DNA of 64,000 bases from Eledone cirrhosa (taxonomy: Eukaryota). Shown in pieces: positions 15,331 to 48,840 of this stretch. Each line of letters opens with the position of its first letter. Position 1 is the first letter of the stretch. Made by a program: the position numbers and the translations under genes. The notes beneath the pieces were generated by a model. The model made no database searches and was not told the origin of the DNA. It was given only the letters and a program-made list of their open reading frames with translations. The DNA is taken from positions 198,958,001-199,022,000 of the forward strand of contig OZ024741.1 in assembly GCA_964016885.1 (NCBI GenBank). The letters are read 5' to 3'.

Positions 15331-18613
<3,283 letters not shown>

Positions 18614-25861: not shown

Positions 25862-26199
25862 GTGCATATGTATGATTGGATGTGTGTATATATAAATATA
25901 TATATATATGCATATATATATATATATATATGTCAACATGGCTTGTCACTGGACGACACATAGCCATGGGGATGGAGTGGGGGGTATGTGTGCAGCACAA
26001 GCCCGTAGCATTACCATCTTTATGTGCATATATTACTTGACAAGTCCCACAGCAGTGGAGGAGTGGTAACGTGTGTAGACTCGACCAGTTAGAAGCACAT
26101 TGTCACCAATCTAGTCTTAATATAACGTTGCTGATGTGTTAACCTGAACAGCTACATATTCTGGTGAAGTCTTGAGTGTCTGACACACTGCTCACCCAT

Positions 26200-26930
26200 A
26201 CTACATAGGAAGGGTCTAGAAAAGGTGACCTAAGCAAAGCCTGTTCAGTTATCAAGCTGGCAAGCAGCCTACAGTTGGCAGTGGTACAAACTATGGGTAC
26301 ACAAGAGGTGTAGTGGGATCTCAGTTAGATTAACTAAGAATAGGTTGCACAGGAGCAGTAAGCAGCAAATGCCTACAGGAAACAAGCGGTATCAATTTAT
26401 TGGAAGGTTTGGTAGAGGCAAAATACAGCTTCTTCTGTTTGGGTGACCAAATTAGCGGTGGAGGTGGGTGTTCTGAAAGTAGAGTAGCCAGAGTGAGAAC
26501 ACTACAAAAAGAGTTTTCCCTGAAAATGAAGGGCAGACTGCATGATGCATGTATACAAACAGCAATGTTGCATGGTAGTGAGGTCTGGGCACTGTGCATA
26601 CGACCTGTGAAGATTGGAAAGAAATGAAGTTTGCATGCATTGATGGATGTATATACATGAATGGCAAAGCGTAAATGAACTAAGAGAGAAACTGGGATTA
26701 AGAGGAATCAGATGCATGTGATGCATATGATGGATGACACTGTATAAAAAGGTTCAGAGCGTTCCAAGTTGATGGAAGCCATGGAGTAGGAAGACTTGGG
26801 ATGAGATGATAAAAGCTGACCTTGCACAATTGCAACTATCAAAGGCGATGACACAGAACCAAGATCTCTGGTGTTATGCAGTAATACAGAAGACCCACCT
26901 CCTCATGAGTACAGGTTGAAGCATACATCT
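26200..26930 (+). pseudogene. Degraded RTE C-terminal fragment
   Basis: WVHKRC, LGDQISGGGGCSES, KMKGRLHDAC with deletions and frameshifts. Confidence 0.8.
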
Positions 26931-27047: not shown

Positions 27048-27078
<31 letters not shown>

Positions 27079-27081
<3 letters not shown>

Positions 27082-27300
27082 TTTTAATATAGATGAGATT
27101 CTACAGGACTAGAACTGTTTCATTCTTTAGAAATCATCAGGAATCTGGGTATCAAAAAATGATACCCAGATTCCTGATGATTTCTAAAGAATGAAACAGT
27201 TCTAGTCCTGTAGATTCTCATCTATATTAAAACTTTTATACTCTGCAATGTATTGAGTACCTTACTTACTGTGGTTACCTCCGATTCAACCCGGAATAAC

Positions 27301-27301
<1 letters not shown>
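27079..27301 (+). mobile_element. Fold-back HHR element A1 (76-bp arms, 5-nt loop, 66-bp tail), Penelope-like non-autonomous
   Basis: Arms 27079-27154 and 27160-27235; inserted in (TA)n. Confidence 0.75.
27096..27146 (-). ncRNA. Type I hammerhead ribozyme (mirror copy on + strand at 27168-27218)
   Basis: AGAUUC-CUGAUGA-uUUCuaaaGAAu-GAA-ACAG-uucuaguc-CUGU-A-GAAUCU: stems I and III and core intact, GUA site. Confidence 0.75.
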
Positions 27302-27340
<39 letters not shown>

Positions 27341-27343
<3 letters not shown>

Positions 27344-27550
27344 TATTTTATAGAAGGAGCTTCTACAGGACTAGTACTGTTTCATTCAGATGAAATCTTC
27401 AGGAAGCTTTCATCTTCAGGAAGATTTCATCTGAATGAAACAGTACTAGTCCTGTAGAAGCTCCTTCTATAAAATAAAATTTTTTTTACTCTGCCATGTA
27501 TTGAGTACCTTACTTACTGTGGTTATCCCCGACTCAACCCGGGACCTACG
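27341..27550 (+). mobile_element. Fold-back HHR element A2, homologous to A1
   Basis: Arms 27341-27400 and 27420-27479; same tail TACTCTGC.ATGTATTGAGTACCTTACTTACTGTGG. Confidence 0.75.
27358..27408 (-). ncRNA. Type I hammerhead ribozyme
   Basis: AGCUUC-CUGAAGA-uUUCaucuGAAu-GAA-ACAG-uacuaguc-CUGU-A-GAAGCU; stem I covaries with A1. Confidence 0.78.
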
Positions 27551-27758
27551 TATATATATATATATATAAATAAAATAGGTAGTTCAGTAGATTCATGGTT
27601 TACTGAGGCAGGTACCAAAATTAGCACTCTAGGCTAAGGCAGTGTGTATATACATACACACACACACATATATATTCATGTATGTATGCATATATATGTA
27701 TGTATGTATGTATATATATATATAAGTCTTGCCTCGAGTGAATTATTTTCATATCTAC

Positions 27759-27869
27759 GTACTCTGATGTGTTGATCAGAGGTAAATAATGTATTGGTGA
27801 TCGAGTGACGCAACCTCAAGCGATTAGCGAACTCTAGACTCACCTGATCAACGAAACAATTGTCAGTAC
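27759..27869 (+). ncRNA. Hammerhead ribozyme with greatly extended stem II, in Penelope-like fragment ~27724-28086
   Basis: GUACU-CUGAUGU-GUUGAUCAG...CUGAUCAAC-GAAAC-AAUU-GUC-AGUAC, followed by AATAAA. Confidence 0.7.
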
Positions 27870-28399
27870 TTTAAATAAAGCTCCTTATTGTACAGCCAAC
27901 CATGTTACTCTTCATTATTTAACTATTATTACTTCAAGTATAACCTGCATAGAAATTACCGCAAACTCGCTGCATAACTATGGAAGCATCTTGTTGAGTC
28001 AAACAAAGCCGTACGTTAAAACTATCCACGATGCAGAGTACTCACAACCTCTAACTGGATTACCTATAACGATAACTTGTTATCCCATATATATATATAT
28101 AATATATATATGTTCTCATCATTATTATTACTTTTACTGTAATTAATGTTTTGAGTTTTTGTTTAATCATTTTACTTTTATTTACATCATTACCAATACA
28201 TGGCAGCTGGAAATCATTCAGCTATTCTAAATAGAATATTAGTCTAATGATTTTGTTGTAGCATGAAATTTTTCTTCTCACTCCACATAATGACATAATT
28301 ATTCCTGCATATATTTCATCCATCATCAGAGAATATCCTCACATACCACCATTATGTCTTCCTGTTTTCTTTTCGTTGAAATGTTTATTGAAATATTTA

Positions 28400-46982: not shown

Positions 46983-47025
<43 letters not shown>

Positions 47026-47870
47026 ATACTTTGGGAGGGTCATGTTGCCAATAAGAAACACACGCACCAGTTGCTTTCACTTCAATTTAATTTAATATAT
47101 ATTTATAAATTTACAAATTTATAAATTTCTGGTTGGTTGGTTGGTTCCACAACCAGATAGTTGTTTATATATATATAGTCATAGTTCTTTCGTCACACAC
47201 TCTGTGACCTCTTCAGTGACTGGGGATTTCTTTCTTCGTTTCTGTGCCTTTCCTTTCTTCTATCCTACGCCATTTTGTTTGTGTGTGGGTTGCGTGCTCA
47301 GTTTGCGCATGCGCCACATCCGGGTGTCTGTGTGTGTTTGTGTTCATTTTTCTATTTTTCTATTTATATTTGTTTGTTTATTTATTTATTTATTGTTGGT
47401 TGGTTGTTTGTTCTATGTGTGTGTGTGTTTTCATTTTGTCTTGTGTGTGTTTTCATTTTGTGTGTGTTTTCAATTGTAAGTTGTTTGTTCTATGTGTGTG
47501 TGTGTTTTCATTTTGTCCTTAATTGTAAGTTGTGATGTTGCTGTTCCACTCATATTTTCTATTTAATTTTGGTTTTAATTCTTTTAAAAGAATTTGGTTT
47601 TAATTCTTTTAAAAGAATTAAAACCAAAATTAAATAGAAAATATGAGTGGAACAGCAACATCACAACTTACAATTAAGGACAAAATGAAAACACACACAC
47701 ACATAGAACAAACAACTTACAATTGAAAACACACACAAAATGAAAACACACACAAGACAAAATGAAAACACACACACACATAGAACAAACAACCAACCAA
47801 CAATAAATAAATAAATAAACAAACAAATATAAATAGAAAAATAGAAAAATGAACACAAACACACACAGAC

Positions 47871-47928
47871 ACCCGGATGTGGCGCATGCGCAAACTGAGC
47901 ACGCAACCCACACACAAACAAAATGGCG
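47871..47928 (+). promoter_or_regulatory. Promoter-like cassette: ETS (CCGGATGT), NRF1 (GCGCATGCGCA), YY1 (CAAAATGGCG); mirrored at 47268-47325
   Basis: Three housekeeping-promoter consensus motifs within 60 bp, CpG-rich in an AT-rich context. Confidence 0.5.
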
Positions 47929-47974
47929 TAGGATAGAAGAAAGGAAAGGCACAGAAACGAAGAAAGAAATCCCC

Positions 47975-48019
47975 AGTCACTGAAGAGGTCACAGAGTGTG
48001 TGACGAAAGAACTATGACT
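47975..48019 (+). ncRNA. Minimal hammerhead ribozyme (mirror on minus strand at 47177-47221)
   Basis: AGUCA-CUGAAGA-g-GUCACA-gagug-UGUGAC-GAAAG-aa-CUA-UGACU. Confidence 0.72.
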
Positions 48020-48230
48020 ATATATATATAAACAACTATCTGGTTGTGGAACCAACCAACCAACCAGAAATTTATAAATTTGTAAATTTATAAATATATA
48101 TTAAATTAAATTGAAGTGAAAGCAACTGGTGCGTGTGTTTCTTATTGGCAACATGACCCTCCCAAAGTATAACAATATCGGTTTCAACACACGATTTCAG
48201 ATAAAGAATCTTGCTAAACAAATTCAGAAA

Positions 48231-48840
<610 letters not shown>

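What the first reader, a model, noticed from the sequence alone, without database searches (positions are those of the whole stretch)
27079..27550. Tandem pair of small fold-back hammerhead elements with covarying stems
Seen: two diverged relatives, each inverted arm + direct arm + conserved ~65-bp tail, separated by (TA)n. Their HHRs differ in sequence but keep pairing: stem I AGAUUC/GAAUCU versus AGCUUC/GAAGCU, stem II UUC/GAA with different loops, stem III ACAG/CUGU, core CUGA(U/A)GA..GAA, GUA site. Compensatory change points to selection on ribozyme structure. The architecture matches the 47-kb element although the sequence is unrelated.
Basis: partly seen in the sequence, partly recalled or inferred. 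Interest (0 to 1): 0.75.

Follow-up and report, generated by a model that had tools for sequence, protein, structure and literature searches.

The report
Penelope-type retrotransposon stubs with hammerheads
These two small mirror-image repeats are broken end-pieces of two very common Penelope-type jumping genes, each carrying a predicted self-cutting RNA motif, and many sampled sister copies stop about 30 bases below a TATA-like box, likely because the copying enzyme runs off the front end of the gene's RNA.

Summary
The anatomy is real; the reading as selected small ribozyme elements is not. Each unit is a truncated insertion of a Hydra-clade Penelope-like retrotransposon in one (TA)n tract. 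Element 1 is 96.5-99.3% identical to the pseudo-LTR in front of RT+GIY-YIG ORFs (6 of 30 loci), element 2 is 96.9% identical to that of a sister family (2 of 30). The genome holds 27,447 exact core matches. Only the two inverted arms keep a perfect type I hammerhead; one direct arm has a rare stem mismatch, the other lacks its 5' part. The two elements differ by one compensatory pair. Inverted copy, one-sided tail, hammerhead and (TA)n target are published. Not found in print: in 100 position-ordered copies, 49 of 65 inverted arms end 36-46 nt before the cut site, at the start of stem I, 29-32 nt below a TATA box, and both arms share a source. This suggests two cDNAs running off an uncut RNA's 5' end (about 0.6; no RNA data; element 1 itself runs past the peak). 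I noted this idea first; the scan had reported it on other DNA.

The parts
27051..27079 (.). (TA)n target tract, left of element 1
   Evidence: sequence
27080..27160 (-). Element 1 inverted arm: family A pseudo-LTR from -59 to about +22 relative to the predicted GUA cut site; no tail
   Evidence: 98.9% to parent copy L080 over 87 nt; extents
27096..27146 (-). Perfect type I hammerhead of family A: 6-bp stem I, CUGAUGA, U.U at 10.1/11.1, 3-bp stem II, 4-bp stem III with a loop holding a 4-nt palindrome, GUA site
   Evidence: cleavage not tested
27160..27303 (+). Element 1 direct arm: family A pseudo-LTR from -53 to +91; hammerhead 27168-27218 with a stem I mismatch at 27215
   Evidence: 97.2% to L080 over 144 nt; mismatch in 23 copies against 6,587
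27235..27303 (+). One-sided tail of element 1 (about 69 nt between the two fixed outer ends); in parents it runs on into the 5' UTR and ORF
27304..27342 (.). (TA)n tract and short T run between the two insertions
   Evidence: sequence
27343..27408 (-). Element 2 inverted arm: family B pseudo-LTR from -45 (first base of stem I) to +21; holds a perfect hammerhead at 27358-27408
   Evidence: 95.5% to parent copy L154 over 66 nt
27409..27419 (+). 11-nt junction insert, partly a repeat of the end of the inverted arm
   Evidence: gap of 11 nt; sequence
27420..27551 (+). Element 2 direct arm, -37 to +95: hammerhead without its 5' stem I strand and first two core bases, followed by the tail (27478-27551)
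   Evidence: 96.9% to the pseudo-LTR in front of the family B ORF in L132 and L154
27552..27568 (.). (TA)n tract, right of element 2
   Evidence: sequence

Best explanation
The two units are separate 5'-truncated insertions of two sister families of Hydra-clade Penelope-like retrotransposons in one (TA)n tract, each likely made by two reverse-transcription events primed from the two nicked DNA strands, which in the short copies likely ran off the 5' end of an uncut RNA and were joined head to head. Shown: parentage, family size, two fixed outer ends about 70 nt apart (+89 to +91 for direct arms, about +21 for inverted arms), a pile-up of inner ends at the start of hammerhead stem I, a TATA-like box 29-32 nt upstream of that base, and a common source for both arms. 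Inferred: the endonuclease nicks both strands of (TA)n; one cDNA starts at the end of the tail and one at its start, as shown in vitro for a Poseidon element (PMC11167929); the element's transcript begins at the first base of stem I, so copies of that 5' end stop there (element 2); copies of a read-through RNA that covers the promoter go further (element 1, -53/-59); the two ends are joined through 1-4 nt of microhomology or short inserts. Every arm spans the GUA site, so the template was uncut or religated. The hammerhead belongs to the parent's RNA; at this locus it is a passenger, likely silent and decaying.
For: Parentage: element 1 matches the sequence about 45 nt in front of the ATG of 714-aa ORFs at 96.5-99.3% in 6 of 30 ORF loci; element 2 at 96.9% in 2 of 30 family B ORF loci. 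The two parent proteins are 72.9% identical and carry RWR, DKT, YRDD, CxCx5C, YIG, CxxC and CxH; by eye they follow the published Hydra alignment block by block. The U.U next to the core is common in the published Hydra hammerhead table. The same architecture occurs at larger scale: L062 has a tail-less inverted arm, then the ORF 3' part, then hammerhead and tail. Position-ordered sample (first 100 of the 6,587 matches, fetched): 65 have an inverted arm within 700 nt; direct arms end at +88 to +91 in 85 of 100; inner ends fall at -36 to -46 in 49 of 65 inverted arms (22 at -44) and 45 of 100 direct arms. Family B: 23 of 41 arms end at -37 to -46, 8 at -45. TATA to stem I spacing is 29-32 nt in 10 of 11 long copies of both families although the sequence between differs (a twelfth copy was dropped because the anchor pattern failed). 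Arms are coupled: both short 49, both long 10, mixed 6 (Fisher p 4.5e-8); loop II is the same in 52 of 54 pairs against 23.3 when shuffled (maximum 34 in 10,000). Either arm can be the longer one: inverted longer by 4 nt or more in 20 of 55 short pairs, direct longer in 10, which a single fold-back does not predict.
Against: The start site rests on promoter spacing and DNA ends only. Element 1 of this very finding does not stop at the peak (-53/-59). In family A the commonest end is -44, one base short of the predicted start. A G precedes 9 of 10 family A and 5 of 8 family B arms that end at -45, as a copied cap would give, but the partner arm or a switch to the stem I 3' strand gives the same G, so this does not count. 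Rare variants are mostly in one arm only (59 against 3 shared), so 'same source' means same subfamily or source locus, not a proven single RNA molecule. Inner ends are blurred by microhomology and by my alignment cut-offs; 6 direct arms at -47/-48 may be diverged longer copies. The sample covers only the first 67 Mb (A) and 83 Mb (B) of one contig. The hammerhead fold is not the lowest-energy fold even in isolation.
Confidence: 0.6

Rival explanations
1. Same parentage, but the inner ends pile up because of stem I itself: after copying the 5' strand of stem I the cDNA end is complementary to the copy of the 3' strand, and it switches template or stops there.
For: The peak coincides with the stem I 5' strand. 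Two junctions (L189, L190) carry a few bases that match the sequence after the stem I 3' strand.
Against: A helix would block a polymerase coming from the 3' side at +6, not at -45. Ends trail off from -44 to -36 with few just beyond (3 of 65 inverted arms at -47 to -74). The coupling of short with short and long with long arms points to two kinds of template. The fixed TATA spacing needs no such explanation under the start-site model.
Confidence: 0.18
2. The inverted arm arises by self-priming (snap-back) of one strand, for instance of an antisense template, as proposed for rotifer Penelope elements (PMC3846280, Discussion passage).
For: Many junctions are near-perfect palindromes with 1-4 nt overlap (29 of 65), and the arms share a source.
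Against: One fold-back makes one arm always the longer; both directions occur (20 and 10 of 55). Both outer ends are fixed and abut (TA)n, as two primed starts would give.
Confidence: 0.1
3. The RNA end at stem I is made by processing, for example a 3' splice site: a CAG after a T-rich stretch sits at -46 to -44, and in Drosophila virilis Penelope the intron ends at the 5' end of helix I (PMC4209133).
For: The CAG is present in both families; published precedent.
Against: No recurring upstream exon at the junctions; inserts are short and differ. No room for an intron between a TATA-driven start and -44.
Confidence: 0.08
4. One reading: an independent family of small fold-back ribozyme elements (retrozyme-like) kept by selection on these loci and giving circular RNAs.
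For: Perfect hammerheads in the inverted arms; stem I covariation between families; very many short copies.
Against: Inner junctions differ from copy to copy, so the fold-back is not itself copied; 97-99% identity to pseudo-LTRs of coding elements; both direct arms are damaged; long hairpins bury the motifs; no head-to-tail monomers here.
Confidence: 0.04

Closest known systems
Hydra clade of Penelope-like elements (Craig et al. 2021, PMC8557442; passages, section 11, supplement part 2 of 59 and supplement passages read)
   Same: C-terminal GIY-YIG, RWK-like and DKT motifs, CxCx5C linker, CxxC and CxH, canonical hammerhead often with U.U beside the core, (TA)n target, inverted 5'-truncated copy (noted for Penelope-13_HM), one-sided tail.
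   Different: New families: hammerhead and protein differ from Hydra-1_Obim as printed (by eye). Stem III has an 8-nt loop where the table shows 1-3 nt. The tail is about 70 nt, not 30-40. Thousands of short two-armed stubs with a fixed inner end are not described in the parts read.
Hammerheads in PLE pseudo-LTRs (Cervera and de la Pena 2014, PMC4209133; parts 1-2 of 4 read)
   Same: Type I motifs, genome-wide as mostly truncated copies, pairs 100-700 bp apart on opposite strands, palindromic loop III, families full of covariation.
   Different: These have a 4-bp stem III and a 3-bp stem II rather than the minimal form with long stem II, and no G10.1-C11.1 pair.
Poseidon element PAc in vitro (Frangieh et al. 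2024, PMC11167929; parts 1-2 of 4 read)
   Same: Two internal start sites bounding the tail, both DNA strands cut and extended, AT-rich target, uncut RNA as main template.
   Different: Other clade; there the hammerhead overlaps the start codon, here it lies about 135 nt upstream of it. The parts read do not link inverted copies to run-off at a start site.
Inverted pLTRs of rotifer Penelope elements (Arkhipova et al. 2013, PMC3846280; passages read)
   Same: Head-to-head junctions with palindromes, optional tail, TATA and Inr-like motifs in the pLTR.
   Different: They propose self-priming on an antisense template; the arm lengths here fit two primed cDNAs better.
Metazoan non-LTR retrozymes (PMC7229834, passages; bioRxiv 10.64898/2026.07.22.740005, part 1 of 5 and passages)
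   Same: Short, non-coding, type I hammerhead, related to PLE pseudo-LTRs.
   Different: Retrozymes are head-to-tail arrays with a hammerhead in each unit; the window units are head-to-head stubs.

Membership tests
Hydra-clade Penelope-like element | Element is the pseudo-LTR of a single-ORF RT element | tested here: met
   96.5-99.3% in 6 of 30 and 96.9% in 2 of 30 ORF loci, same strand, just upstream of the ORF; YRDD at 347. Pfam finds no RT in the full proteins; the assignment rests on motifs and by-eye match to the published alignment.
Hydra-clade Penelope-like element | C-terminal GIY-YIG endonuclease | tested here: met
   YIG at 603 of 714; Pfam GIY-YIG E 0.0084, below its cut-off, on the 426-aa piece, not listed for the full proteins; atlas look-alikes carry GIY-YIG in part.
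Hydra-clade Penelope-like element | RWK motif and DKG changed to DKT | tested here: met
   RWR at 38, DKT at 116 in both parents; definition.
Hydra-clade Penelope-like element | CxCx5C linker, C-terminal CxxC and CxH | tested here: met
   CxCx5C at 567, CxxC at 667, CxH at 695 in both parents.
Hydra-clade Penelope-like element | CCHH motif absent from the endonuclease | tested here: inconclusive
   None seen by eye in the printed proteins; no aligned test against canonical PLE endonucleases.
Hydra-clade Penelope-like element | Insertion into (TA)n | tested here: met
   87 of 100 direct arms are followed by TA-type sequence within 8 nt; 3,790 tail-less ends abut TATA directly.
Hydra-clade Penelope-like element | Generally shorter than 3 kb | tested here: inconclusive
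   ORF 2.1 kb, but family A has a long simple-repeat 3' region; in L062 about 3.7 kb lie between stop codon and hammerhead, possibly with later insertions.
Hydra-clade Penelope-like element | Placement in the Hydra clade on an RT tree | not tested
   The published proteins could be read but were not available to the alignment and tree tools.
Type I hammerhead ribozyme | Core CUGANGA, GAAA, UH and three formable helices | tested here: met
   Complete in the 2 inverted arms, one mismatch in direct arm 1, broken in direct arm 2.
Type I hammerhead ribozyme | Covariation in the helices | tested here: inconclusive
   15 hand-picked variants: 92.8% of cells paired, 3 pairs with double changes, all in stem I; stems II and III do not covary; 92 of 500 shuffles reach 3 such pairs; bulged and distant rows are misaligned. 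R-scape not available.
Type I hammerhead ribozyme | Stable fold as a monomer | tested here: not met
   The hammerhead fold lies 3.1-3.4 kcal/mol above the lowest fold; z-scores -1.0 to +0.3. Stem III pairs better between two molecules (-12.8 and -15.2 against -1.4 kcal/mol), as in dimeric motifs.
Type I hammerhead ribozyme | Self-cleavage | not testable with these tools
   Needs an assay.
Non-LTR retrozyme | Head-to-tail monomers of 170-400 nt, a hammerhead in each | tested here: not met
   Head-to-head arms, two different families, no recurring pair.
Non-LTR retrozyme | Circular RNA | not testable with these tools
   Needs RNA data.

The most novel reading that the evidence does not exclude
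The thousands of short head-to-head stubs are a genomic record of how Penelope-like elements integrate: both strands of a (TA)n break prime reverse transcription at two fixed sites on uncut RNA from one source, the cDNAs run off a capped 5' end that is the first base of the hammerhead, and end-joining fuses them. The inverted pseudo-LTR and one-sided tail would then be one process, and the hammerhead would be the very first structure of the transcript.
Probability: 0.55. Interest if true: 0.6.

Novelty: new member of a known kind. Interest (0 to 1): 0.4.

Why it matters
As a locus it is ordinary: two dead retrotransposon stubs among tens of thousands. The family-wide pattern matters more. How Penelope-like elements form their inverted ends, and whether their hammerhead cuts the template, are called open in the papers read (PMC8557442, PMC3846280, PMC4209133). 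If the inner ends mark the RNA start, genome sequence alone maps the promoter, shows that uncut RNA is a major template in vivo, and favours two-strand priming over antisense self-priming. Young families with open 714-aa ORFs give material for the in vitro test.

Tried and rejected
Rfam scan of the window: nothing at gathering score. A special origin for the stem I mismatch of direct arm 1: rejected, 23 copies against 6,587, and my first search was biased towards it. The pair as a unit: rejected. Assembly artefact: unlikely given fixed outer ends in thousands of dispersed copies; not checked with reads. Cap-derived G: confounded, not counted. Expression: no RNA holder listed (4 runs of unrecorded kind from one study); no reads were laid. 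Pfam and PDB sequence searches of the full parent proteins: no RT hit, only weak unrelated rows. Single-sequence structure prediction: mean pLDDT 32.4, not used, no fold search. The constrained energy for direct arm 2 used a slice that was off by one and is ignored. In one search the tail ends of family B were cut short by T-run length differences, so only the window copy's +95 and 4 others are read from it. Literature searches for the run-off or twin-priming reading: 'Penelope, retrotransposon, inverted, palindrome, transcription start site, hammerhead' (5 of 6 terms, 8 papers) and 'Penelope, twin priming, inverted, tail' (1 unrelated review); judged from listings, neither showed it. Also. 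The library lacks most subscription papers, and I read only parts of each paper; unseen supplements of PMC11167929 and the bioRxiv preprint may bear on this.

Full report
Observation. The window is a 64-kb piece of a 3.0-Gb animal genome. At 27080-27551 lie two related units between (TA)n tracts, each an inverted arm, a direct arm and a tail of about 70 nt. A scan for type I hammerheads finds perfect motifs on the minus strand of both inverted arms. The direct arm of element 1 has one stem I mismatch; that variant occurs 23 times in the genome against 6,587 for the paired form, so it is decay. The direct arm of element 2 begins 37 nt before the predicted GUA site, behind an 11-nt insert, and lacks the 5' stem I strand and two core bases. 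The two motifs differ at 8 of 51 positions, with a single compensatory pair. Rfam has no match.

What it is. Each unit has many dispersed copies at 94-100% identity; a 26-nt core pattern has 27,447 exact matches and 0 in the reversed control. Outer ends are fixed but the point where the arms meet varies from copy to copy, so the fold-back is rebuilt at each insertion. Longer copies lead upstream into an RT and GIY-YIG ORF on the same strand; L062 shows the same inverted-plus-direct layout over about 7.7 kb. A protein search returned 98 scored copies at 92-100% identity, many with open frames near 758 codons. In 6 of the 30 fetched loci, element 1's hammerhead and tail sit directly in front of the ORF at 96.5-99.3% identity; element 2 does so in 2 of 30 loci of a sister family at 96.9%. 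The two 714-aa proteins are 72.9% identical and carry RWR, DKT, YRDD, CxCx5C, YIG, CxxC and CxH, the marks of the Hydra clade (PMC8557442 section 11); by eye they follow the published Hydra alignment, and the U.U beside the core is common in the published Hydra hammerhead table. Pfam misses the RT, and no tree was built. The pair is two separate insertions into a preferred target: the other family lay within 700 nt in 0 of 100 family A and 2 of 30 family B position-ordered loci, with other spacing or orientation.

The ribozyme. Among 15 hand-picked variants, 92.8% of cells pair; 3 of 12 pairs change on both sides, all in stem I; stems II and III do not covary, and 92 of 500 shuffles reach 3 such pairs. 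This fits selection on the parents but is thin. The hammerhead fold lies about 3 kcal/mol above the lowest fold and folds no better than shuffles; stem III pairs much better between two molecules, as described for dimeric PLE motifs (PMC4209133). At this locus the TATA-like box is missing and a read-through RNA would form long hairpins (-273 kcal/mol), so activity here is unlikely.

How it likely forms. I took the first 100 of the 6,587 tail-bearing family A matches in genome order. Sixty-five have an inverted arm within 700 nt. Direct arms end at +88 to +91 in 85 of 100; inverted arms end about +21 (3,790 such ends abut TATA). Two fixed starts bounding a tail match the two internal initiation sites shown in vitro for a Poseidon element, which also cut and extended both DNA strands and used uncut RNA (PMC11167929). 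Inner ends pile up at -36 to -46 in 49 of 65 inverted and 45 of 100 direct arms, with 22 inverted arms at -44 and only 3 between -47 and -74; family B gives 23 of 41 arms at -37 to -46. Position -45 is the first base of stem I and lies 29-32 nt below a TATA-like box in 10 of 11 long copies, the usual TATA-to-start distance for RNA polymerase II (recalled, not from a call). Arms are both short in 49, both long in 10 and mixed in 6 insertions (p 4.5e-8) and share loop II in 52 of 54 pairs against 23.3 shuffled. Either arm may be the longer (20 and 10 of 55). Junctions show 1-4 nt overlaps in 29 of 65 and 1-6 nt inserts in 22. The simplest reading is two cDNAs primed at the two nicks, running off the RNA's 5' end and joined; long arms would come from read-through RNA.

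Against this. The start site is inferred from DNA only. Element 1 itself runs to -53/-59, so it belongs to the long class; only element 2 shows the peak. The family A mode is -44, not -45. The extra G that a cap would leave is present (9 of 10 and 5 of 8 arms ending at -45) but has other sources. Rare variants are shared by both arms in only 3 cases against 59 in one arm. Stem I template switching, a splice acceptor as in Drosophila Penelope and antisense self-priming remain rivals. In D. virilis the promoter is internal and TATA-less (PMC2377424 passages), so the layout is not universal.

Comparison and novelty. Inverted truncated copy, one-sided tail, (TA)n target and hammerhead are published for this clade, and opposite-strand hammerhead pairs 100-700 bp apart were reported in 2014. 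The families are new members; hammerhead and protein differ from Hydra-1_Obim. The run-off reading did not appear in two targeted searches or in the parts of papers read. I wrote it down before looking at the scan's notes; those notes report it on other DNA of this and other genomes and are unchecked AI notes, not support.

Verdict. Observation partly confirmed, interpretation partly supported. Identity as Hydra-clade PLE stubs about 0.97; full mechanism about 0.6. New member of a known kind; interest 0.4.

Noticed in passing
window 27725-28090 (+), motif at about 27759-27869: A third, unrelated repeat family next door carries a type I hammerhead-like fold (5-bp stem I, long stem II, palindromic loop III, GUC site) whose core lacks the conserved A9: 49 of 49 exact pattern matches read CUGAUG then U (47) or C (2), none A (fixed flanks may hide A-bearing relatives). 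The motif is the same in 12 of 12 similarity-picked loci; fold z -2.05; 3,341 candidates in the genome. Parent not sought.
   Followed up: partly
L030 (G000:C4:279228075-279231207): Head-to-tail array of a 191-nt unit with a hammerhead in each repeat and an inverted arm in front. The unit is 94% identical over all 191 nt to the family A parent from stem I through tail and 5' UTR to just past the ATG: a retrozyme-like array derived directly from the retrotransposon's 5' end.
   Followed up: partly
window 47020-48176: A long near-perfect palindrome with a different hammerhead-like core on both strands (47216, 47980); probably a two-armed insertion of another Penelope-like family; no BLASTN match to families A or B.
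   Followed up: partly
window 27250, 27498 (+), 46928, 28046 (-): A short GAGTAC-containing motif is shared by the tails of both elements and by two other repeats in the window; a similar stretch is printed at the 3' end of coral Hydra-2_Amil. Possibly a binding site for the element's protein.
   Followed up: no
window about 26000-26900: Decayed reverse-transcriptase fragment of a LINE-like element, with stops and frameshifts, left of the finding (family not tested).
   Followed up: no
L025, L083: Two insertions whose inverted arm keeps the tail, exceptions to the one-sided tail.
   Followed up: no
L062:1077-1124 (-): A distant hammerhead of the same layout with wholly different stem I and stem II and a GUC site.
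   Followed up: no
window 16001-18000 and 48230-48500: Very long (TA)n tracts (GC 0.04 at 16-18 kb); the window also holds 200 N.
   Followed up: no
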